From positions 1 to 61,626 of the IMG/VR virus record IMGVR_UViG_3300046167_000317: a DNA stretch of 61,626 bases; one strand, given 5' to 3'. Source of the DNA: a virus (Duplodnaviria > Caudoviricetes). The notes under the pieces were generated by a model, which was not told the origin of the DNA, did no database searches, and saw only the letters and a list, made by a program, of their open reading frames with translations. The position numbers and the translations under genes were made by a program. Of the stretch, positions 2,309 through 29,221 are shown one piece after another (the stretch's first letter is position 1; each line of letters opens with the position of its first letter).

Positions 2309-2539
2309 TTAATTGTTTTTTTCTATTGTTTCAGCGATATATTGCCATACTTTTAATTCTTTTTTAGTACCGTTAAGCACTAGCTCCAGCTCTTCTGTAG
2401 TTATGCCGCCTGTGTTACCGTGCTTTAGATCTTTTTTTAGTCGTTCGATATCAAAACCTAACATAGTTATTTTTGCGAAAGCTTTATCGATAGCTTGCGA
2501 GTGTATAGCACTATTCATCAGGGTTGGGATTAAACGCAT
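2309..2539 (-). CDS. Hypothetical protein (start possibly at the MNSAIH ATG)
   Basis: ORF track; operon context. Confidence 0.6.
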   Translation of the reverse strand: MRLIPTLMNSAIHSQAIDKAFAKITMLGFDIERLKKDLKHGNTGGITTEELELVLNGTKKELKVWQYIAETIEKNN

Positions 2540-2732
2540 CGCCGAAGAACGCTAGGTTACAAGCACACATTATATCGTGAACAATACCGTACTTAACTTC
2601 AGTGAAGAAGAACTCGGTGTGTAACACTTCTACAATGCACTCATGCGAGTAAGGGCGATCGGCAAAATCTTTTTTTAATAGTTGTTTGTACTCTGGTTTG
2701 AGACGTGCCCATAGTGTTAATGATCTTTTCAT
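2511..2732 (-). CDS. Hypothetical protein
   Basis: ORF track; preceded by motif copy 3. Confidence 0.65.
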   Translation of the reverse strand: MKRSLTLWARLKPEYKQLLKKDFADRPYSHECIVEVLHTEFFFTEVKYGIVHDIMCACNLAFFGDAFNPNPDE

Positions 2733-2755
2733 AGTGTTATATTTATTTGTTACAT

Positions 2756-2911
2756 TTATATTATCGATTGATGTTCGTGTTTTGTTTGCAAATCGCGTTT
2801 CTTATTCTTGTACTGTCTATTCGCTTTACAATGAGGACAACTCCCGTTGTTTCTACAAGTTTTATCAAACCTTTTTGATCCGGTATAAGGCTTTTTTTTA
2901 GTCCTGCTCAT
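2756..2911 (-). CDS. Small basic Cys-containing protein (51 aa)
   Basis: Below the track cutoff: MSRTKKKPYTGSKRFDKTCRNNGSCPHCKANRQYKNKKRDLQTKHEHQSII. Start overlaps the upstream gene end. Confidence 0.65.
   Translation of the reverse strand: MSRTKKKPYTGSKRFDKTCRNNGSCPHCKANRQYKNKKRDLQTKHEHQSII
2757..2792 (-). promoter_or_regulatory. 36-bp early-region motif copy 3 (inside the 3' end of 2756..2911)
   Basis: tatattatcgattgatgttcgtgttttgtttgcaaa. Confidence 0.75.
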
Positions 2912-3152
2912 CTATTTCTTCATTTATACACCGCGCTATTTCGTAATAGTTTACGTCACTTAAAAACGATCGAGCGTAATTAGCTACTAGACTTCCTTTA
3001 CACCCGCAGTTATCAAATACTACGTTTTCTACTATTTCTTTTAGGTAATCTGCAGTAACTGTTTCATCACTAGCCCATTGAATGTCACCTAATATTTCTA
3101 AGTTTACTCGCCACGTAGCGTAGTTTGTCCATCCGTTGTATTCTTTATTCAT
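2898..3152 (-). CDS. Hypothetical phage protein (YNGWTNYATW family)
   Basis: YNGWTNYATWRVNL...VNYYEIA motif recurs in small phage proteins. Confidence 0.7.
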   Translation of the reverse strand: MNKEYNGWTNYATWRVNLEILGDIQWASDETVTADYLKEIVENVVFDNCGCKGSLVANYARSFLSDVNYYEIARCINEEIDEQD

Positions 3153-3168
3153 AATTTATTTGTTTTAG

Positions 3169-3278
3169 TGGACATGGCAGGAATCGAACCTGCGTTTGAA
3201 CCGAACCAGCCTCAGTAGTAACGCTTGCTGGAAGCATTAAGTTACCTTGAGTGTGGGTTCACTAACCATATCATGCCC
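3169..3278 (-). ncRNA. tmRNA-type tRNA-like domain only (mini-tmRNA, 110 nt, Ala identity)
   Basis: Acceptor GGGCAUG/CAUGUCC-A with G3:U70. Stemless D-loop AUAUGGUUAG. Helix UGAACC/GGUUCA capped by an irregular hairpin. AAC linker, then T arm GCAGG-UUCGAUU-CCUGC. Confidence 0.8.
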
Positions 3279-3280
3279 AA

Positions 3281-3505
3281 TTGAGAGGCGGATAGCACTG
3301 GAATGTTAGGGATGCACGCCATTTAATAGTATGCCCTGACTTATACCCTTTTCTCTGTTTATACTATCTTTCGCTGTCATCGTTCGCACAATTACAGGTG
3401 ATCAAACCTTAGTGCCGTCAATATCTTGGCTTCCAGACTTAAACCTCTCCGCTAGCAATTCACTTATGTGTTAAAGAGTTACGGGCTGTATACGGCCACC
3501 TTCAA
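3281..3505 (-). ncRNA. Candidate ~225-nt structured RNA
   Basis: No long ORF, GC-elevated. Ends pair (UUGAAGGUGG / CCGCCU-C-UCAA). Internal CUGGAA/UUCCAG pairing and a hairpin at 3305-3340. Confidence 0.45.
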
Positions 3506-3527
3506 CCTAATTAAGCTACTCGTCTAG

Positions 3528-3701
3528 CTATATTTCTTTTACCATTTCTGCGATCACACGGCGCATAAGTTCGCTGTGTATAGCATTGAAGTCATCATTG
3601 TTTACATCAAGATTGTTTAGTTGCCAGTCACAAGTTTTATATAGTGCTTGCATTGTTACTTCAGTTACTTGTGTTACGTGATCGTCTAAGTTCATATTCA
3701 T
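3528..3701 (-). CDS. Hypothetical protein (57 aa)
   Basis: Hand translation MNMNLDDHVTQVTEVTMQALYKTCDWQL...MVKEI. Confidence 0.55.
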   Translation of the reverse strand: MNMNLDDHVTQVTEVTMQALYKTCDWQLNNLDVNNDDFNAIHSELMRRVIAEMVKEI

Positions 3702-3882
3702 CTGAGTTTTTTGTTAGTATATTGTTTTATCATAGTGACTCATCCACTCAATATTACTTAGGCTAAAACCTTTAGATATTATGAAATCTATTAAGTCTTG
3801 ATGTCTTTCATATTGGTCTTCTTGTATCTCATATTGGTGTACATGTCCCATTGAGAAATCTAGTATTGTTATATATTTCATA

Positions 3883-4134
3883 TTAATCGCCTTTATAGTT
3901 TAGTGTTTTATAGAATTCGCCAGCCGCTTTAAAACTTAGCTCTTCGCATTCTTTGTAATATGCTTCGTTTTTTATTTGGTCGTCGCGCCAAGCGGTTACT
4001 TCTTCAAGTGTACCATATTGCGTAGTGTAACGAATAGTACATTTGTATATTTCTTGATCCGGTTTGTACGGGTTGTCGTGTCTTATTATATCCATTATTC
4101 CTGTATGTAAGTTAAACCTTTGTAATTGAACCAC
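3883..4134 (-). CDS. Hypothetical protein (true start probably the MDIIRHD ATG near 4095)
   Basis: ORF track; an internal ATG abuts the upstream stop. Confidence 0.6.
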   Translation of the reverse strand: MVQLQRFNLHTGIMDIIRHDNPYKPDQEIYKCTIRYTTQYGTLEEVTAWRDDQIKNEAYYKECEELSFKAAGEFYKTLNYKGD

Positions 4135-4277
4135 TCAATGATACCGTCGCGGTCGTTGTCTTCGTCGTATTTAAAAGCGAATAGATTTGGTAGTTCGCCG
4201 ATCATATACGGTTTGTATAGCATACCGTTTAGTTTGATTTTTTTGCCGTTATTGATAAATTTAATTGAGTTAGTCAT
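4095..4277 (-). CDS. Hypothetical protein
   Basis: ORF track; preceded by motif copy 4. Confidence 0.65.
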   Translation of the reverse strand: MTNSIKFINNGKKIKLNGMLYKPYMIGELPNLFAFKYDEDNDRDGIIEWFNYKGLTYIQE

Positions 4278-4302
4278 AGTATTATTTTTTATTTGTTACA
4301 TT

Positions 4303-4338
4303 ATTATTATCTTAGAGTGGTCGTATTATGTTTGTAAA
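4303..4338 (-). promoter_or_regulatory. 36-bp early-region motif copy 4
   Basis: attattatcttagagtggtcgtattatgtttgtaaa. Confidence 0.7.
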
Positions 4339-4451
4339 TTAAAACACTTCTTCCGATATCCACAATCTATCTTGTTCATCTAGTTCGTCGTAAGTTACAC
4401 CGTGATAGTGTAAAGCTACTATATTTAAGTCGTACATATTATTTGGTTTTA

Positions 4452-4784
4452 TTAGTTATATTCATCATAGATCACCCCAGCTTCGTGGAATGCCCACATT
4501 ACTTTGTTTATAAATTCTATTGTATTGCACTTTGCTTTTTCAATTGGAAAGGTATATACCATTGCATTATAGAATTCCATTAAAGCTTCATTATTATATG
4601 CCCAATTTTTCTTAAAATACTCATACTCGTCACCTTGCATGAAGTTTAATCCTACTACTTTTCGTAGTTCGTTGTATTCAACATATATCCATCGATCGTC
4701 TTTTTCACACCATTCGTGTAATACTCTATCTATTCTATTTGCTTTCATATTTATAATTTTATATTGATTTCCAAAATAATTCAC
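4452..4784 (-). CDS. Hypothetical protein (true start probably MKANRID)
   Basis: ORF track; operon context. Confidence 0.6.
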   Translation of the reverse strand: MNYFGNQYKIINMKANRIDRVLHEWCEKDDRWIYVEYNELRKVVGLNFMQGDEYEYFKKNWAYNNEALMEFYNAMVYTFPIEKAKCNTIEFINKVMWAFHEAGVIYDEYN

Positions 4785-4942
4785 GTTGCTCGTCGGTTAA
4801 ACCTTTTAAGTTTTCTTGACCGAACATTTCAAGGCATATTTTAGTTCGTCTTTCGGATTCTTTAAAGTTGCGAGTTACCTCGTCCCACGCTTGTTGATTT
4901 GTTTGATATTGTCGGTACATAGTTATTTATTTTTTATTCAAT

Positions 4943-4978
4943 TATATTATCGTTTAGTGTTCGTTTTTTGTTTGTAAA
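4943..4978 (-). promoter_or_regulatory. 36-bp early-region motif copy 5
   Basis: tatattatcgtttagtgttcgttttttgtttgtaaa. Confidence 0.75.
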
Positions 4979-5065
4979 AAGTATATTATCTATTTGTTGG
5001 TAAAATTAGTGATACAGGTATAATACCACTCCTCTAAGTACTCAACTACTTTTTTTTTCTAAAAG

Positions 5066-5113
5066 TGTGACGTTAGCTAGTTATATTATTACTAATAAGA
5101 GGCTATTGTCGCA
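5066..5113. promoter_or_regulatory. Spaced inverted-repeat site A (TGTGACGTTAGC-N24-GCTATTGTCGCA)
   Basis: Imperfect 12-bp inverted repeat; similar sites at 6248, 60558 and 61262. Confidence 0.7.
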
Positions 5114-5279
5114 TTTTACTTAATTATTTATTTGTACTTATAAATCGTTTTATTATTTCCTCTAGTTTGAAAGTGTCTTCGGGAGATAGGTCCCCTGAGT
5201 TTAGTTGGTGATCTTTACAAATTTCGCTAAAGTTAATGTAGTCTAATAATTCCATTTTATTTCTTATTTTAAATTCATA

Positions 5280-5315
5280 TATATTATCATTGGGTGATCG
5301 TATTACGTTTGCAAA
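5280..5315 (-). promoter_or_regulatory. 36-bp early-region motif copy 6
   Basis: tatattatcattgggtgatcgtattacgtttgcaaa. Confidence 0.75.
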
Positions 5316-5416
5316 ATGCTATACATTAAAAACTAAAGTTACCTAACGTACTTCGTTTGCAAAGTGCTATACGCGTTGCTATACACGCTCCGCGTGTTTG
5401 GGGAAGTTAAGGAACC

Positions 5417-5737
5417 TTATTTAGATTCCTCAACATCTAGATCAACAAACTCACCTAAGTGTCTTACATTAACCGGTAGATTAGTTGATTGTGACCAATA
5501 CCCTCGTTTGATCCAACATGGCATGATATTTAATTTAGGTAACATTACTTTAAGCACCTCATCGTGGTTGTACGTTACTTGTTGGTTTTTGTTATTGATG
5601 AAAGTTATTACTTGATTTCTACCTAACCATGATTTACGTACTACAAAGTTCTTTCTTGTAATAGGTGGGAAGATTAAAGACTTCTCTTCGTTTGACATGT
5701 TAGTTAATGCTTGGGTAATTAATTCTTGATTTGACAT
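5417..5737 (-). CDS. Hypothetical early protein
   Basis: 106-aa ORF directly downstream of motif copy 7. Confidence 0.75.
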   Translation of the reverse strand: MSNQELITQALTNMSNEEKSLIFPPITRKNFVVRKSWLGRNQVITFINNKNQQVTYNHDEVLKVMLPKLNIMPCWIKRGYWSQSTNLPVNVRHLGEFVDLDVEESK

Positions 5738-5771
5738 AATTTTATTTATTTAGTTATTATTTATTTTCATT

Positions 5772-5807
5772 TATATTATCGAATACTATTCGTATTAAGT
5801 TTGCAAA
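5772..5807 (-). promoter_or_regulatory. 36-bp early-region motif copy 7
   Basis: tatattatcgaatactattcgtattaagtttgcaaa. Confidence 0.75.
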
Positions 5808-5812
5808 TTTGT

Positions 5813-5962
5813 TTATTTATTTATAAAAATTCCATCGAGTGCAAGTTGACACTCCTCCAACGTATCGCGTAGACTGTCGGTCGTTACGTTACCGTTTAGA
5901 TACTGGTTTAATTCGTCGATCGTAGTTAGTATTTCGATTCGTAATCTGGTATTTAATTTCAT
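5813..5962 (-). CDS. First - strand ORF (49 aa)
   Basis: MKLNTRLRIEILTTIDELNQYLNGNVTTDSLRDTLEECQLALDGIFINK, lying between motif copies 8 and 7. Confidence 0.55.
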   Translation of the reverse strand: MKLNTRLRIEILTTIDELNQYLNGNVTTDSLRDTLEECQLALDGIFINK

Positions 5963-5985
5963 AGTTATTATATTTATTATTCGTA

Positions 5986-6021
5986 TATATTATCGTAAAC
6001 CGATCGTACTACGTTTGCAAA
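5986..6021 (-). promoter_or_regulatory. 36-bp early-region motif copy 8
   Basis: tatattatcgtaaaccgatcgtactacgtttgcaaa. Confidence 0.75.
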
Positions 6022-6245
6022 AAGGTGAAACGTTATACACAAAATTCGGAAATTAGTTGCGATAGTCGATCGAGTTATTGACAACAAAACGTACGAAACG
6101 TCGAATAAAACGTAAAAACGATACGGGGGCTGGTAAAAAAAAAGTAAATTCCCGTTCGGGGGCCGAAAATTGTATAGCGTAGCGTAACCCTTTAGTTCCA
6201 TATATCTAACAAAAAATTTTTTAATATTTTTTTTTGGTCCAGTAA
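6022..6245. other. Non-coding divergence point; candidate genome terminus/packaging site or origin
   Basis: AAAACG-type short repeats, two GGGGGC patches and A/T tracts, between the divergent arms. Confidence 0.45.
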
Positions 6246-6247
6246 AA

Positions 6248-6294
6248 CGTGACATTAGGTAGTTATATATAAATAGTAGTAGGCTATCGTCGCA
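6248..6294. promoter_or_regulatory. Spaced inverted-repeat site B (CGTGACATTAGG-N23-GCTATCGTCGCA)
   Basis: Homologous to site A; upstream of the first + strand gene. Confidence 0.7.
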
Positions 6295-6350
6295 TTTATA
6301 TAATTGGGGTCTATGTTAGTATTATATAATTGTGCGTAATCATACATGGT

Positions 6351-6605
6351 ATGAGACAACAACTTTCCCCATCTGCTAGAAGAGCTAAAGCTGCTAGAGA
6401 TAAAGCTTATGCAATGACTCCTGACAGGAAGGCTAAAAAAGCGCATGCTCAGAGAGAGCGTAGTGCGGCTAAAAAGAAAGGTCAAAACCTAGACGGTCAA
6501 GATTACGATCACAAAAGACAGAAGTTCGTTTCTATTAAATCAAACAGAGGAAACGAGGGACTAGGTACTCAGCAAGAATCAGGACAAACTTACAACACAA
6601 AATAA
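6351..6605 (+). CDS. Small basic protein with a degenerate HNH-like DYDH...NRG motif
   Basis: ATG at 6351 preferred over the track start at 6330; DGQDYDHK...SIKSNRG. Confidence 0.6.
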   Translation: MRQQLSPSARRAKAARDKAYAMTPDRKAKKAHAQRERSAAKKKGQNLDGQDYDHKRQKFVSIKSNRGNEGLGTQQESGQTYNTK

Positions 6606-6606
6606 C

Positions 6607-7551
6607 ATGGCAAGAATTACCACATACGCATTAGATTCTAATATATCTTTAAATGATAAATTAGTGGGCACTGATGCTGACGACAATAGTATAACTAAGA
6701 ATTATTCTATAGACGCTCTCGGCGATGGTTTAATATCACTTAAGGATATTATAACTGGAACTGGCACATTAAACACAATACCTATGTTTACCCCAGACGG
6801 GCAAATTATAGGTGATTCCACTATAACCCAGGACGTAGGCGGTAATATTACAGTTGGAGTAAATTTAACTGTAGTAGATGATTTAACTGTGGAAGGTAAT
6901 ATTGATGTTGATAACAGCATAACTGTTGGCGGTGTTGGGAGTGTGTTTAATGGCACCGTAACTTTTAATGATAATATTACAATTAATGCAGACACCACAT
7001 TTGAGGGTGAGGCAAATTTTCAGAATATAGTTAAAGATGAAAATAGCCAGCCTGGTATACTTGGCCAGGTGCTTACATCAACAGGTAATGCAGTCTTATG
7101 GAAAAATCTTAATGCCATATCAGAAGTAAAAACCGCTACAGTTACAGTTACAGATGCTCAAATACGAACGCTAGGCACAGTACCGGTTGAAATAATACCT
7201 TCAACAACCGATGCTAGTATTCAAATAATAGGTTTAACCATCCAAAATATCGGAAACGGAGATCTTGGAGATTCATATGATTGGTCTGCGTCTGGTAACG
7301 GAGTTTTTTATGGCCAAGGATTTACATCAACACAACATAGAGTAGAAATAAATAATTCTCTTTTGCCAGAAGGAGGGGCTTCTTTAGCACCGGAAATATA
7401 TGTAGCTAGTATAACACCTGGAGGTATGAAATCTGGCGCTAGTATACAGCTTAGCACAACAACAGGAGTTAATCCTTCAATACCTATTGGTGAATCGCCT
7501 AGCGCAGAAATGATTGTCAATGTTACATATAGAATAATACCTACAACATAA
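6607..7551 (+). CDS. Virion fibre/appendage protein
   Basis: MARITTY...TKNYS N-terminal module; G/T/N/V-rich beta-repeat composition. Confidence 0.65.
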   Translation: MARITTYALDSNISLNDKLVGTDADDNSITKNYSIDALGDGLISLKDIITGTGTLNTIPMFTPDGQIIGDSTITQDVGGNITVGVNLTVVDDLTVEGNIDVDNSITVGGVGSVFNGTVTFNDNITINADTTFEGEANFQNIVKDENSQPGILGQVLTSTGNAVLWKNLNAISEVKTATVTVTDAQIRTLGTVPVEIIPSTTDASIQIIGLTIQNIGNGDLGDSYDWSASGNGVFYGQGFTSTQHRVEINNSLLPEGGASLAPEIYVASITPGGMKSGASIQLSTTTGVNPSIPIGESPSAEMIVNVTYRIIPTT

Positions 7552-13418: not shown

Positions 13419-14972
13419 ATGGAATTTAATAATCCTAACGAAATCGTTAAAACCCTTACTTTTGGTAGTGAGGCAAATAGTCAAATTATATCAGGAGTAG
13501 AAAAATTAGCAAGCGCAGTAAAGAGCACTTTAGGTGCGTCTGGAAAATGCGTAATATACGAAGATGCTCTTGGAAGACCGGTAATAACAAAAGACGGTGT
13601 AACCGTTGCAGAAAGCGTAGTCTTATTACATCCGGTTGAAAACATAGGCGCTACCTTGATAAAAGAAGCGGCTAGAAATACAGTAAGAGAAGCAGGTGAC
13701 GGCACAACAACATCAACCGTGCTTGCTCATTCTCTATTAAAAATTGCAAACAAACATTTAGATGAAGAAAAAGTTAGAGAACTTAAAAGTGGCATTATTA
13801 GTGGTGCTGATAAAGTTAAGGTATATCTTGATAAAACCAGCACTGAAGTTAAAGGCGAAATGTTACGGAGCGTTGCTATCATTAGCTGCAATAACGATAT
13901 CGAGCTTGGAACCAAAATTGGCGAAGCTTACGAGCAAGTTGGAAAAAATGGAGTTGTACTAATGGAGGAGTCTGATACAAATGAAACTTATGTTGATTTT
14001 GTTGAAGGCGTCCAATTTGATAGTGGATTAAAATCCCCGCACTTAGTAACAGACAAAGACAAAGGTACGGCTGTTTTAGACGATCCTTATGTGCTTATTG
14101 TTTCTTCTCCTATTCCTAATATAAGAAAAATACAAAGTGTCTTAGAACACGTTATAAAAAGCAAAAGAAGTTTGCTTATAGTTGCAACTGTTGAGCAGCA
14201 GCCGTTCGCTACATTATTGTCAAATAAAGTTAAAGGTAATATAAAAGTAAATATAGTTGATGCCCCAGGCTTTGGGCCAACAAGGCAAGAAACTATAGAG
14301 GATCTGGCTTTACTTACAGGTGCTACAATTATAAACGAAGAGCTAGGGGATGATTTAGATTTAATTGATCCAAATGTATTAGGTTCTGCTATTAAATCTG
14401 TAACTGATGATAAATCAACTGTATTGCAAATATCTGATGAAATTGATATTACAGATCGAGTAGCTGATGTTAATAAGAAAATAGAAACAGAAACAAACCC
14501 GTTTTTTAGAAAGAAGTTAGAGCAGCGTTTGTCAATGCTAACAGGCAAAGTAGGTCTTGTTTATGTTGGAGCAGATTCAGCTGTAGAGTTAAAAGAAAAG
14601 AAAGATAGAGTTGAAGATGCGATCCATGCTACTAAAGCAGCTTATAAAGAAGGTATCGTAGCTGGAGGTGGAATTGCATTGCTTAATGCAGCAAATACTT
14701 TAAAGCCTAAGAATAAAGGAGAAGAGATATTATTTGAATCAATCAAAGCTCCTTATTACACAATACTAGACAACGCTGGGATTGTTGAAATCAAAAAGCC
14801 TTCGGTTAAAAACAGAGGTATTGACGTTAAAACCGGCAAAGAAGTTAATATGATTAAAGCAGGTATTATAGATCCTGTTTTAGTTACTAAGTCAGCTCTT
14901 AAAAACGCTGTAAGTGTAGTAACAACTATTATCTCTGCAGATTGTGTAATTAGTAATAAAAGATTAGCATAA
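13419..14972 (+). CDS. groEL: Phage chaperonin GroEL
   Basis: TKDGVTVA, AGDGTTT, EKKDRVEDA, GIVAGGG, GIIDP motifs; no GGM tail. Confidence 0.97.
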   Translation: MEFNNPNEIVKTLTFGSEANSQIISGVEKLASAVKSTLGASGKCVIYEDALGRPVITKDGVTVAESVVLLHPVENIGATLIKEAARNTVREAGDGTTTSTVLAHSLLKIANKHLDEEKVRELKSGIISGADKVKVYLDKTSTEVKGEMLRSVAIISCNNDIELGTKIGEAYEQVGKNGVVLMEESDTNETYVDFVEGVQFDSGLKSPHLVTDKDKGTAVLDDPYVLIVSSPIPNIRKIQSVLEHVIKSKRSLLIVATVEQQPFATLLSNKVKGNIKVNIVDAPGFGPTRQETIEDLALLTGATIINEELGDDLDLIDPNVLGSAIKSVTDDKSTVLQISDEIDITDRVADVNKKIETETNPFFRKKLEQRLSMLTGKVGLVYVGADSAVELKEKKDRVEDAIHATKAAYKEGIVAGGGIALLNAANTLKPKNKGEEILFESIKAPYYTILDNAGIVEIKKPSVKNRGIDVKTGKEVNMIKAGIIDPVLVTKSALKNAVSVVTTIISADCVISNKRLA

Positions 14973-28393: not shown

Positions 28394-29221
28394 ATGGCTA
28401 AAAAAGCTACAGCAGAAACAGTTGAGGTTGCGCCTCAAAAAGCAGCGGTTAAAACCGCACCAGTTCAAAAAGCACCGGCTAAACCAGTGTTTGAATTTAA
28501 AGATAGAACTTATTATATTGCTACAGGAAAATCACCTTTAGTATATACCATACCTTCTAGGCACAGTCAGCGAAAACCTTTACTGTATTTTGACAACGAA
28601 TTAGGTTATGCACGGGAGCTTCGCTATGCAACTAACCAGCCTTCTCCATTAGTTGATGAACAAAAAGGAGAAGTTACATTAGGTAGAATTGTTTTTAGAA
28701 ACGGTACGTTAACGGTAAGAAAAGAAGACGTTGCTTTACAAAAGTTGTTATCTATATATCACCCTTTTAAAGACAAGATATACAAAGAACTAGATCCGGT
28801 ACAAGATTCTGTTAATGAATTAGATTGGATTGAATACGAATTAGAAGCTTTAACAGCTGCTAAAAGTATGGATATTGATTACGCGGAAGCAATATTAAGA
28901 TCTGAGTTTGGAGAAAAAGTTACAAAATTATCTTCAAGCGAATTAAAAAGAGATTTGATGATCTTTGCAAAAAGAAATCCTATCTTATTTATGGAATTAG
29001 CTAACGATGATTCAATCGAGCTAAGAAACATAGGAGCTAAAGCCGTTGAAGCCGGCATATTAAAACTTTCTGGAGATCAACGTACATTTACATACGGCGA
29101 TGGAAACAGAAAATTAATGACAGTTCCTTTTGATGAGCATCCTTATTCTGCATTAGCATCTTTCTTTAAGACTGATGATGGAATGGAAGTTTACAAAACA
29201 ATTTTAAAAAGACTTAAATAA
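28394..29221 (+). CDS. Conserved hypothetical protein downstream of the capsid gene
   Basis: ORF track; RELRYATNQ.S motif. Confidence 0.7.
   Translation: MAKKATAETVEVAPQKAAVKTAPVQKAPAKPVFEFKDRTYYIATGKSPLVYTIPSRHSQRKPLLYFDNELGYARELRYATNQPSPLVDEQKGEVTLGRIVFRNGTLTVRKEDVALQKLLSIYHPFKDKIYKELDPVQDSVNELDWIEYELEALTAAKSMDIDYAEAILRSEFGEKVTKLSSSELKRDLMIFAKRNPILFMELANDDSIELRNIGAKAVEAGILKLSGDQRTFTYGDGNRKLMTVPFDEHPYSALASFFKTDDGMEVYKTILKRLK

What the first reader, a model, noticed from the sequence alone, without database searches (positions are those of the whole stretch)
3166..3278. Phage-encoded mini-tmRNA: complete tRNA-like domain with no mRNA-like domain
Seen on the - strand: GGGCAUG-AUAUGGUUAG-UGAACC-[CUCA/UGAG, GUAAC/GUUAC and a small terminal hairpin]-GGUUCA-AAC-GCAGG-UUCGAUU-CCUGC-CAUGUCC-A(CUA). 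It has a G3:U70 pair, discriminator A, a stemless D-loop, a 3-nt variable linker and no anticodon loop. Established: these features define the tmRNA tRNA-like domain, which is charged by AlaRS and bound by SmpB and EF-Tu. Bacterial tmRNAs are ~350 nt with pseudoknots and a tag ORF; tagless short forms are known from some mitochondria. Here the mRNA-like part is replaced by a ~55-nt hairpin (110 nt total) and CCA is not encoded. Inference: an early phage RNA that either sequesters SmpB to block host trans-translation, or rescues stalled ribosomes without a degradation tag, for example against tRNA/mRNA-cleaving defences.
Basis: partly seen in the sequence, partly recalled or inferred. Interest (0 to 1): 0.93.

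Follow-up and report, generated by a model that had tools for sequence, protein, structure and literature searches.

The report
Phage tmRNA-like RNA without tag
A marine phage carries a small RNA that copies only the tRNA-like end of the bacterial ribosome-rescue RNA (tmRNA); one such phage RNA was already described, but here it proves common among uncultured marine phages.

Summary
Window 3169-3278 (- strand, CUA tail to 3166) folds into a complete tmRNA tRNA-like domain (TLD). It has a 7-bp acceptor stem with G3:U70, A73, a stemless D-loop and a UUCGAUU T-arm. A 65-nt hairpin replaces the mRNA-like part. Rfam's tmRNA model matches both ends (33.6 bits, below its cut-off of 47). ARAGORN finds nothing.

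It is a conserved gene. Related marine phage contigs carry it at the same place. Nine of 17 stem pairs show compensatory changes. G3:U70 and A73 were kept in every intact copy sampled without constraining them (53/53, 19/19, 17/17).

The kind is not new. A TLD-only tmRNA is published for mycobacteriophage DS6A, with the SmpB-titration idea. My models score the DS6A RNA and the window RNA alike.

Best reading: a CCA-tailed, alanine-charged decoy that engages host SmpB and competes with host tmRNA. This is inferred, not shown.

Apparently new:
- the breadth of the family: 48 tRNA-filtered distinct sequences from the first pattern scans, a few with imperfect acceptor stems, plus further variants in later samples;
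- hairpin inserts exchanged between the TLD and a neighbouring unknown structured RNA;
- an RNA cluster upstream of the TLD.

The parts
3169..3278 (-). Predicted mature TLD-only tmRNA-like RNA, 110 nt, from G1 (3278) to discriminator A73 (3169)
   Evidence: Sequence; Rfam tmRNA 33.6 bits matched end to end; R1 98.1 bits; R2 52.3 bits. The ends are inferred from the structure, not mapped.
3166..3168 (-). Genomic CUA where CCA would stand. CCA must be added after trimming (inferred).
   Evidence: The same C-U-A follows A73 in 19 of 19 clade copies and in DS6A, and in 16 of 17 copies.
3272..3278 (-). Acceptor stem, 5' strand (GGGCAUG), with G3 of the G3:U70 pair
   Evidence: Pairs 4:69 and 5:68 covary; G3:U70 is present in 9 of 9 sequences.
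3262..3271 (-). Stemless D-loop analogue (AUAUGGUUAG) with the GG that Rfam aligns to the tmRNA consensus
   Evidence: Rfam alignment; alignment A1.
3197..3261 (-). P2-like stem (3256-3261 pairs with 3197-3202) closing a 53-nt variable 'cargo' hairpin. It stands where tmRNA has helix 2, the pseudoknots and the tag frame.
   Evidence: Fold. All 5 proximal P2 pairs covary in the clade. The interior cannot be aligned between relatives.
3194..3196 (-). Three-nucleotide linker AAC
   Evidence: Invariant in A1.
3177..3193 (-). T-arm: GCAGG, UUCGAUU, CCUGC
   Evidence: The T stem is paired in 100% of cells, and 2 of its 5 pairs show compensatory changes.
3170..3176 (-). Acceptor stem, 3' strand (CAUGUCC), with U70
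3451..3528 (-). Upstream structured RNA 'module A': a covarying closing stem, invariant internal loops and a variable apical hairpin. It is context and may not belong to the same mature RNA.
   Evidence: Nine of 17 predicted pairs show compensatory changes in 23 sequences. Rfam has no match.
3283..3450 (-). Upstream structured RNA 'module B'. Its outer stem GAGAGG/CCUCUC ends 4 nt before G1 of the TLD.
   Evidence: Read by eye. Relatives L073, L054, L113 and L100 keep the outer and second stems with changed letters. No formal covariation test was run.

Best explanation
This is a real, conserved phage gene for a 'TLD-only tmRNA'. It consists of the tRNA-like domain of transfer-messenger RNA closed by a hairpin, with no tag reading frame and no pseudoknots.

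Proposed mechanism (inferred):
1. The RNA is cut out of the leftward transcript by host tRNA-processing enzymes: RNase P at G1, then 3' trimming and CCA addition.
2. Host alanyl-tRNA synthetase charges it through G3:U70 and A73.
3. It binds host SmpB, and EF-Tu when charged.
4. It thereby competes with the host's own tmRNA for SmpB and for stalled ribosomes. Trans-translation, meaning tagging and destruction of unfinished proteins, is reduced or diverted during infection.

Shown here: the structure, its conservation and covariation, and the strict retention of the alanine identity elements.

Taken from the literature for a similar molecule: inhibition of tmRNA.

Inferred: processing, charging, SmpB binding and any benefit to the phage.
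For: 1. Anatomy matches the tmRNA TLD at both ends.

2. It is conserved at a syntenic site in related marine phage contigs. Loci L003, L004, L008, L088, L017, L069, L050, L038, L073 and L011 share many proteins with the window (tblastn). Of 25 loci fetched through the neighbouring protein alone, 16 carry 17 intact copies upstream on the same strand.

3. Covariation in the clade (A1, 9 sequences): 98.7% of cells pair; 9 of 17 pairs change on both sides; 0 of 500 shuffles reach this; slid controls give 0-1 such pairs. In the wider family (A2, 36 sequences): T stem 100% paired, acceptor 94.4% paired; 174 cells changed on both sides against 73.3 +/- 6.8 in shuffles, 0 of 500.

4. Alanine identity elements are retained while other acceptor pairs vary. 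A scan leaving positions 70 and 73 free returned 53 loci, and all 53 were already in the set that required U70 and A73. Copies found through an unrelated upstream motif have G3:U70 and A73 in 19 of 19. Copies found through protein synteny have them in 17 of 17.

5. In 5 relatives a tRNA-Met gene starts a few bases after the TLD, the usual layout of co-processed tRNA clusters.

6. The phage encodes no SmpB, no RF-1/ArfB domain and no CCA-adding enzyme above cut-off, so it must rely on host factors.

7. Precedent: DS6A's TLD-only RNA (record 28478-28560) scores 43.2 bits with Rfam tmRNA, 31.3 with R1 and 48.7 with R2. It is the same kind of match and also ends A-CUA. PMC4131195 states that a similar molecule strongly inhibits tmRNA, perhaps by titrating SmpB.
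Against: There is no direct evidence of a discrete transcript, of CCA addition, of charging or of SmpB binding.

The score lies below Rfam's curated threshold (33.6 against 47).

The clade's D-loop and P2 junction (GGUAAG ... AAC) differ from the usual tmRNA GGnUUCGAC ... GGAC, so SmpB contacts could be altered.

[quoted passage not shown] Pure SmpB titration therefore does not explain why G3:U70 is always kept, which suggests the natural RNA does more than soak up SmpB.

The gene is dispensable. Of 25 syntenic loci, 6 have none, 2 have a reduced 53-nt form and 1 keeps only the 3' half.

In the wide alignment the number of pairs with a change on both sides (17) is not above shuffles (15.6; 97 of 500). 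P2 pairs in only 68% of cells there, which may reflect the limits of the alignment.
Confidence: 0.6

Rival explanations
1. Tagless rescuer. The charged TLD with SmpB enters stalled ribosomes, accepts the nascent chain on alanine and lets the ribosome be freed by another route, such as drop-off or a hydrolase. No degradation tag is added, so phage proteins made from broken messages survive. This is the role suggested for mitochondrial tmRNAs that lack a tag frame.
For: Strict retention of G3:U70 and A73 argues that charging, and hence ribosome entry, matters. PMC11915505 notes that tag-less mitochondrial and plastid tmRNAs are conserved together with SmpB and probably still help with incomplete mRNAs.
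Against: No release activity is encoded in the phage: no RF-1/ArfB domain was found. No test was made here. The published experiment on a similar molecule showed inhibition, not rescue.
Confidence: 0.2
2. tRNA-like handle. The TLD mainly serves as a processing and stability scaffold (RNase P, CCA enzyme) that releases and protects the variable hairpin it carries and punctuates a multi-RNA precursor. The functional part is the cargo hairpin.
For: The hairpin is replaced wholesale between relatives while the TLD stays. Seven TLD inserts share stretches with 9 apical loops of the neighbouring module A RNA. Examples: 96% over 51 nt for the L004 TLD against L054 module A, and 93% over 71 nt for L099 against L017. 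The TLD sits in a run of structured RNAs and tRNA genes.
Against: A mere handle needs neither G3:U70 nor A73, yet both are invariant. Many family members carry only a minimal hairpin, at 68-80 nt in all. The window's own insert was not found in any module A loop.
Confidence: 0.12
3. Decoy for a host defence that senses or cuts tmRNA or tRNA, for example systems with SmpB-like domains or tRNA nucleases. It would not act on trans-translation itself.
For: Predicted defence systems (CoCoNuTs) carry SmpB-like OB folds thought to bind tmRNA (PMC11090510, passages read). DS6A also encodes an RtcB-like RNA ligase.
Against: This rests purely on context. No such system or counter-gene was found beside the RNA.
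Confidence: 0.05
4. Decayed tRNA or tmRNA gene, or an attachment-site remnant without function.
For: Phages often carry fragments of ssrA picked up at integration sites (PMC9004378, passage read). One relative keeps only the 3' half (L175).
Against: Both halves are present and pair. Compensatory changes keep three stems. No tyrosine integrase is present. The RNA is conserved at one site across diverged phages.
Confidence: 0.03

Closest known systems
TLD-only tmRNA of Mycobacterium phage DS6A. It is listed as 'TLD only' in PMC4131195 and as a CDS-less standard form in PMC11915505. The experiment is in Mao et al. 2009, RNA Biol 6:355, which is not held and is known here only through those two papers.
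   Same: Both are phage-encoded. Both have a complete acceptor stem with G3:U70, A73, a stemless D-loop and a T-arm, with a hairpin in place of the mRNA-like domain. Both genomes read A-CUA instead of CCA. Both score below the Rfam cut-off with matches at both model ends (43.2 against 33.6 bits), and both are recognised by models R1 and R2.
   Different: The DS6A hairpin insert is about 20 nt, against 53 nt (65 with its stem) here. DS6A keeps the usual CGAC ... junction, whereas the window clade has GGUAAG/GGUUAG ... AAC. DS6A is a temperate actinophage at 69% GC in this region. The window is a 36% GC marine podophage-like genome without an integrase. Here the RNA sits in a cluster of other structured RNAs.
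Bacterial tmRNA (SsrA, Rfam RF00023)
   Same: The tRNA-like domain, position by position in the Rfam alignment.
   Different: There is no tag reading frame, no pseudoknots and no long helix 2. The length is 110 nt against a 374-position model.
Mitochondrial (jakobid, oomycete) and some plastid tmRNAs without a tag frame (PMC11915505, PMC3590771 in the listing)
   Same: They are reduced to little more than the TLD, and their function without tagging is unresolved.
   Different: The organellar genes are usually circularly permuted and co-occur with an SmpB of the same cell. Here the gene is in standard order and the SmpB would be the host's.
Full-length phage tmRNAs, for example Bxz1-like mycobacteriophages and marine myophages with two-piece ssrA (PMC4131195, PMC9004378)
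   Same: A phage carries part of the trans-translation system.
   Different: Those RNAs encode a tag and are found by ARAGORN. This one has no tag and is missed by ARAGORN and by Rfam's default threshold.

Membership tests
tmRNA (Rfam RF00023, full-length SsrA) | 7-bp acceptor stem with a G3:U70 wobble pair | tested here: met
   G3:U70 is present in 9 of 9 clade sequences.
tmRNA (Rfam RF00023, full-length SsrA) | Discriminator A73 followed by CCA | tested here: inconclusive
   A73 is present. The genome reads CUA. Post-transcriptional CCA addition cannot be tested with these tools.
tmRNA (Rfam RF00023, full-length SsrA) | T-arm (5-bp stem, 7-nt UUCGAnU loop) and a stemless D-loop analogue with GG | tested here: met
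   Rfam alignment; A1.
tmRNA (Rfam RF00023, full-length SsrA) | mRNA-like domain with a resume codon and a tag reading frame ending in a stop | tested here: not met
   Only 66 nt stand for 326 model positions. The insert is a closed hairpin and cannot be aligned between relatives. Short GCN-to-stop frames seen by eye in the window and L004 are absent in L006 and L011.
tmRNA (Rfam RF00023, full-length SsrA) | Pseudoknots PK1-PK4 and long helix 2 | tested here: not met
   There is no room for them in 66 nt.
tmRNA (Rfam RF00023, full-length SsrA) | Score at or above Rfam's gathering threshold | tested here: not met
   33.6 bits against 47.
TLD-only tmRNA (DS6A type; 'standard, no CDS') | Complete TLD in standard gene order, with the rest reduced to a hairpin | tested here: met
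   The same architecture was found in DS6A.
TLD-only tmRNA (DS6A type; 'standard, no CDS') | Recognised by one covariance model together with the DS6A RNA | tested here: met
   R2: window 52.3 bits, DS6A 48.7 bits. R1: DS6A 31.3 bits.
TLD-only tmRNA (DS6A type; 'standard, no CDS') | Inhibits host tmRNA, binds SmpB, or is alanylated | not testable with these tools
   Known only from the literature, and only for a similar molecule (PMC4131195).
Ordinary tRNA (tRNA-Ala) | D stem and an anticodon arm with an anticodon | tested here: not met
   ARAGORN finds 0 genes. Within clan CL00001, Rfam kept tmRNA as the best match.
Mitochondrial tmRNA (RF02544) | Usually permuted gene order; match to RF02544 | not tested
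   hid lower-scoring matches of the same clan, so the RF02544 score is unknown. The gene order here is standard.

The most novel reading that the evidence does not exclude
In these marine phages the TLD and the neighbouring 'module A' RNA may be two scaffolds of one RNA system that displays a shared, exchangeable set of hairpin modules. The TLD version would carry its hairpin on an alanine-chargeable, SmpB-binding handle. That could take the hairpin to stalled ribosomes or to factors that bind tmRNA. Such a natural 'tRNA-scaffold' RNA toolkit for host takeover or counter-defence has no described equivalent.
Probability: 0.15. Interest if true: 0.8.

Novelty: new member of a known kind. Interest (0 to 1): 0.55.

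Why it matters
Trans-translation is the main ribosome-rescue pathway of bacteria and a drug target. In the literature I could search, a phage RNA that copies only its tRNA-like end appears as a single case (DS6A).

This window shows that the same device recurs in an unrelated marine phage lineage. The pattern scans suggest it is common in uncultured phages and far rarer in cellular genomes. One pattern matched 70 viral loci. In one genome each of 185,579 species it matched 29 loci, of which only 10 have a fully paired acceptor stem.

The alanine identity pair is kept in every intact copy. This suggests the RNA is charged and goes to the ribosome, which the simple SmpB-sponge idea does not require. 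That gives a concrete, testable question about how phages handle stalled ribosomes.

The practical lesson is that ARAGORN and Rfam's default threshold both miss these genes.

Tried and rejected
- ARAGORN on the window found 0 genes. Rfam at gathering thresholds found 0 matches.
- BLAST of the region against isolated phages gave no match: near mode with 1.4 kb and distant mode with 301 nt. Two other family members also gave none.
- The promoter and terminator scan of 2500-6700 found no more sites than in shuffles and none placed to serve the RNA.
- Sequencing runs: DNA holders are marine or seawater metagenomes. Six metatranscriptome runs held 15-20% of the words.
- Laid contigs of four RNA runs cover 3316-3527, the upstream modules, with flanks unlike the window. 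Only one low-depth contig (X15, 3230-3451) reaches the first 49 nt of the TLD. These are contigs, so they show no ends, no strand and no CCA. The lack of cover over most of the TLD says nothing.
- R1 was run on six isolated relatives: an uncultured podovirus record, Flavobacterium phage elemoA, Cellulophaga phages phi18:3, phi38:1 and Calle_3, and Tenacibaculum phage Gundel_1. It gave only weak hits, which are ordinary tRNAs or other tRNA-like RNAs without G3:U70. No cultured phage-host pair with this RNA was found.
- A tag reading frame was considered. The window insert holds a 7-codon GCU-to-UGA frame and L004 a 6-codon GCC-to-UAA frame (by eye). The inserts are unrelated in sequence and L006 and L011 have no such frame, so this was rejected.
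- A hidden mRNA-like part in the upstream modules was considered. No conserved frame was seen by eye, so this was rejected as unsupported.
- An attachment-site remnant was rejected: there is no integrase and both halves covary.
Mao et al. 2009 is not held, so its experiment is known only second-hand. Supplementary tables of the tmRNA database paper, which may list other CDS-less phage forms, were not seen.
- Literature searches for a wider description of tag-less phage tmRNAs found only the DS6A mentions.

Full report
**What is there**

On the - strand, window 3278 to 3169 reads as a complete tmRNA-type tRNA-like domain (TLD). Its parts are:
- acceptor stem GGGCAUG/CAUGUCC with a G3:U70 wobble;
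- a 10-nt D-loop analogue without a stem;
- a stem UGAACC/GGUUCA that closes a 53-nt hairpin;
- a 3-nt linker AAC;
- a T-arm GCAGG-UUCGAUU-CCUGC;
- discriminator A, followed in the genome by CUA rather than CCA.

The predicted fold gives these helices (-36.5 kcal/mol, z -2.76). ARAGORN reports no gene and Rfam reports nothing at its curated thresholds. With E-value reporting, the tmRNA model RF00023 matches 3166-3278 from its first to its last position. Here 326 model positions are replaced by 66 nt. The score is 33.6 bits against a cut-off of 47, with E 8.9e-12 for the 701 nt searched.

**The genome**

The window is a whole IMG/VR virus record of 61.6 kb, estimated 97% complete. It encodes a GroEL-like chaperonin, terminase, portal, ribonucleotide reductase and primase-helicase. 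The nearest isolated phages by terminase infect Flavobacterium (68 records), Cellulophaga (15), Tenacibaculum (2) and Maribacter (1). The best match is 62.8% identical. DNA runs that hold the region are marine. A marine Flavobacteriia host is therefore likely, but this is an inference.

The RNA lies in the leftward block of small ORFs. No match above the curated cut-off was found to SmpB, the RF-1/ArfB domain, a CCA-adding enzyme or tyrosine integrase. The only hit was 12.2 bits to the CCA-adding family, below its cut-off of 23. The neighbouring ORFs have no informative family matches. The downstream ORF is a borderline DUF7249.

**It is a conserved gene**

Exact-pattern scans of IMG/VR for a TLD with a short middle returned 9, 70 and 9 loci for gaps of 60-90, 30-60 and 90-120 nt. 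These gave 52 distinct sequences in 86 occurrences, the window included. ARAGORN calls four of them (L002, L081, L082, L083) ordinary tRNAs, so they are chance matches. Among the rest, some (for example L074, L032, L076, L010) pair poorly in the simple acceptor register.

A group of contigs of 23-68 kb shares the window's 5' and 3' ends but carries different middles: L003, L004, L006, L008, L088, L050, L054, L011 and its copies. By tblastn most of them are relatives of the window phage, and the RNA lies at the same place.

Covariation results:

| Alignment | Sequences | Cells paired | Pairs changed on both sides | Shuffles reaching this | Slid controls |
|---|---|---|---|---|---|
| A1, window clade | 9 | 98.7% | 9 of 17 (2 acceptor, 5 P2, 2 T stem) | 0 of 500 | 0-1 pairs |
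| A2, wider family | 36 | 79.6% overall; T stem 100%, acceptor 94.4%, P2 68% | 17 of 23; 174 cells against 73.3 +/- 6.8 | cells: 0 of 500; pairs: 97 of 500 | 12-15 pairs; 54-78 cells |

In A2 the bare count of covarying pairs (17 against 15.6 in shuffles) is not above chance.

**Unbiased samples**

- A scan with positions 70 and 73 left free found 53 loci. All were already in the set that demanded U70 and A73.
- A scan for an unrelated upstream motif found 25 loci. Model R1 finds a TLD in 20 of them. The 19 that were new all have seven acceptor pairs, G3:U70, A73 and a CUA tail.
- Twenty-five loci were fetched only through the protein encoded 1.3 kb downstream. Sixteen of them hold 17 intact TLDs, all with G3:U70 and A73. 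Two hold a reduced 53-nt form, one holds only the 3' half and six hold none. Some of these contigs overlap the previous set.

The RNA is thus frequent but dispensable. Its alanine identity elements are kept while neighbouring acceptor pairs change.

**Comparison with what is known**

The kind is in print. PMC4131195 lists 'Mycobacterium phage DS6A (TLD only)'. It states that a similar molecule, chargeable or not, strongly inhibits tmRNA, perhaps by titrating SmpB, citing Mao et al. 2009 (passages read). PMC11915505 counts 9 'standard, no CDS' sequences and 79 phage tmRNAs, and repeats the DS6A statement. Mao et al. itself is not held.

I located the DS6A RNA, which is not annotated in the record, at 28478-28560 between gp33 and gp34. 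It scores 43.2 bits with Rfam tmRNA and also ends A-CUA. Model R2 was built from 36 other viral sequences, one of them (L011) from the window's clade. It scores the window RNA at 52.3 bits as its only hit in the window, and DS6A at 48.7 bits. The window RNA is therefore a new member of the DS6A-type class.

It fails the tests for a full tmRNA: no tag frame, no pseudoknots and a score below Rfam's cut-off. It also fails those for a tRNA: no D stem and no anticodon arm.

Six literature searches found no wider account of such RNAs in phages. Supplements that might list more were not available.

**How it most likely works**

Established background: G3:U70 with A73 is the identity set of alanyl-tRNA synthetase, and SmpB binds the TLD (the abstract of PMC4174442 in the listing says so).

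Inference: the RNA is released by tRNA-processing enzymes, receives CCA, is charged with alanine, and binds host SmpB and EF-Tu. It then competes with host tmRNA. Three observations bear on this:
- A tRNA-Met gene follows the TLD within a few bases in five relatives, which fits tRNA-type processing.
- The phage lacks its own SmpB, release-factor domain and CCA enzyme, so host factors are needed.
- The invariance of G3:U70 is not required by a pure SmpB sponge. I read it as a sign that charging and ribosome entry matter.

Whether the outcome is blocked trans-translation or rescue without a tag cannot be decided here. I give the competitor/inhibitor reading 0.6 and tagless rescue 0.2.

**Surroundings, and a lead beyond the finding**

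The 250 nt upstream are not empty spacer.
- Window 3451-3528 ('module A') has a closing stem and an apical stem that covary: 9 of 17 predicted pairs in 23 sequences. Its internal loops looked invariant, but the scan pattern imposed that.
- Window 3283-3450 ('module B') is a larger structure whose outer stem ends 4 nt before G1 (by eye).
- Rfam matches neither module.
- Other relatives insert a second tRNA-like unit and true tRNAs in the same run.

Metatranscriptome contigs from four studies cover 3316-3527 with flanks unlike the window. They are contigs, so they show presence only.

The variable hairpins are shared between scaffolds. Of the 38 TLD inserts listed, 14 were regex artefacts. Seven of the remaining 24 share stretches with 9 of 23 module A loops, up to 96% over 55 nt. 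This modular exchange is the most novel observation, but its meaning is open.

**Distribution**

The same pattern that matched 70 viral loci matched 29 loci in one genome each of 185,579 prokaryotic species. ARAGORN of those tRNAs, and 10 have a fully paired acceptor stem. Several of these are in candidate-phyla-radiation genomes assembled from metagenomes. No isolated relative examined carries the RNA.

**Verdict**

It is a new member of a known but little-known class. Its function is inferred by analogy and from the conserved identity elements. Interest is moderate. The breadth of the family and the cargo-swapping RNA cluster deserve follow-up.

Noticed in passing
window 3451-3528 (- strand): 'Module A' is an unknown structured RNA found in 25 viral loci. 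Its closing and apical stems covary (9 of 17 predicted pairs). Its internal loops looked invariant, partly because the scan pattern imposed that. Its apical hairpin is variable. Rfam has no match.
   Followed up: partly
window 3283-3450 (- strand): 'Module B' is a larger structured region. Its outer stem (GAGAGG/CCUCUC) ends 4 nt before the TLD. In relatives L073, L054 and L100, module A is nested inside it. This was judged by eye only.
   Followed up: partly
L004, L107, L099, L105, L112, L008 (TLD inserts) against L054, L017, L110, L108, L113, L104 (module A loops): The same hairpin sequences occur in one phage inside the TLD and in another inside module A, for example 96% identity over 51-55 nt and 93% over 71 nt. 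These are exchangeable 'cargo' hairpins of unknown role.
   Followed up: partly
window 3316-3527: Contigs from four marine metatranscriptome runs match this upstream stretch at 90-100% identity and then run on into sequence unlike the window. A conserved element is therefore present in RNA libraries from relatives.
   Followed up: partly
L094, L096, L104, L106, L109, L111, L114, L117 (between module A and the TLD): A second tRNA-like unit is present. It has a 6-bp acceptor-like stem (AACUAG/CUAGUU), a GAGG-UUCGAAU-CCUC T-arm, a variable middle and an ACAAA tail. It has no G3:U70 and is absent from the window.
   Followed up: no
L011, L017, L038, L069, L073: A tRNA-Met (CAT) gene starts a few bases after the TLD. 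L174 carries two TLD copies about 400 nt apart.
   Followed up: partly
L164, L177, L175: These are reduced or decayed forms. Two are 53-nt versions without the P2 hairpin and without G3:U70 in the simple register. One locus keeps only the 3' half.
   Followed up: no
L092 28478-28560 (Mycobacterium phage DS6A, JN698994): The published TLD-only tmRNA is not annotated in the GenBank record. It lies between gp33 and gp34. The phage also encodes an RtcB-like RNA ligase (gp76).
   Followed up: yes
L156 (Tenacibaculum phage Gundel_1, record 73061-73129): A 69-nt tRNA-like RNA has a paired acceptor stem and a T-arm but G3:C70. R1 scores it at only 23.6 bits and ARAGORN does not call it.
   Followed up: no
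L123, L132, L133, L141, L143, L144, L145, L147, L149, L150 (genome contigs): TLD-only-like RNAs of 67-78 nt occur in bacterial and archaeal assemblies, several from candidate-phyla-radiation genomes. I did not check whether they lie in prophages.
   Followed up: no
window 13419-14972 (+ strand): The phage encodes a GroEL-type chaperonin (PHROG 5725, E 4.8e-137). It is conserved at 66-68% identity in relatives L017, L069 and L050.
   Followed up: no
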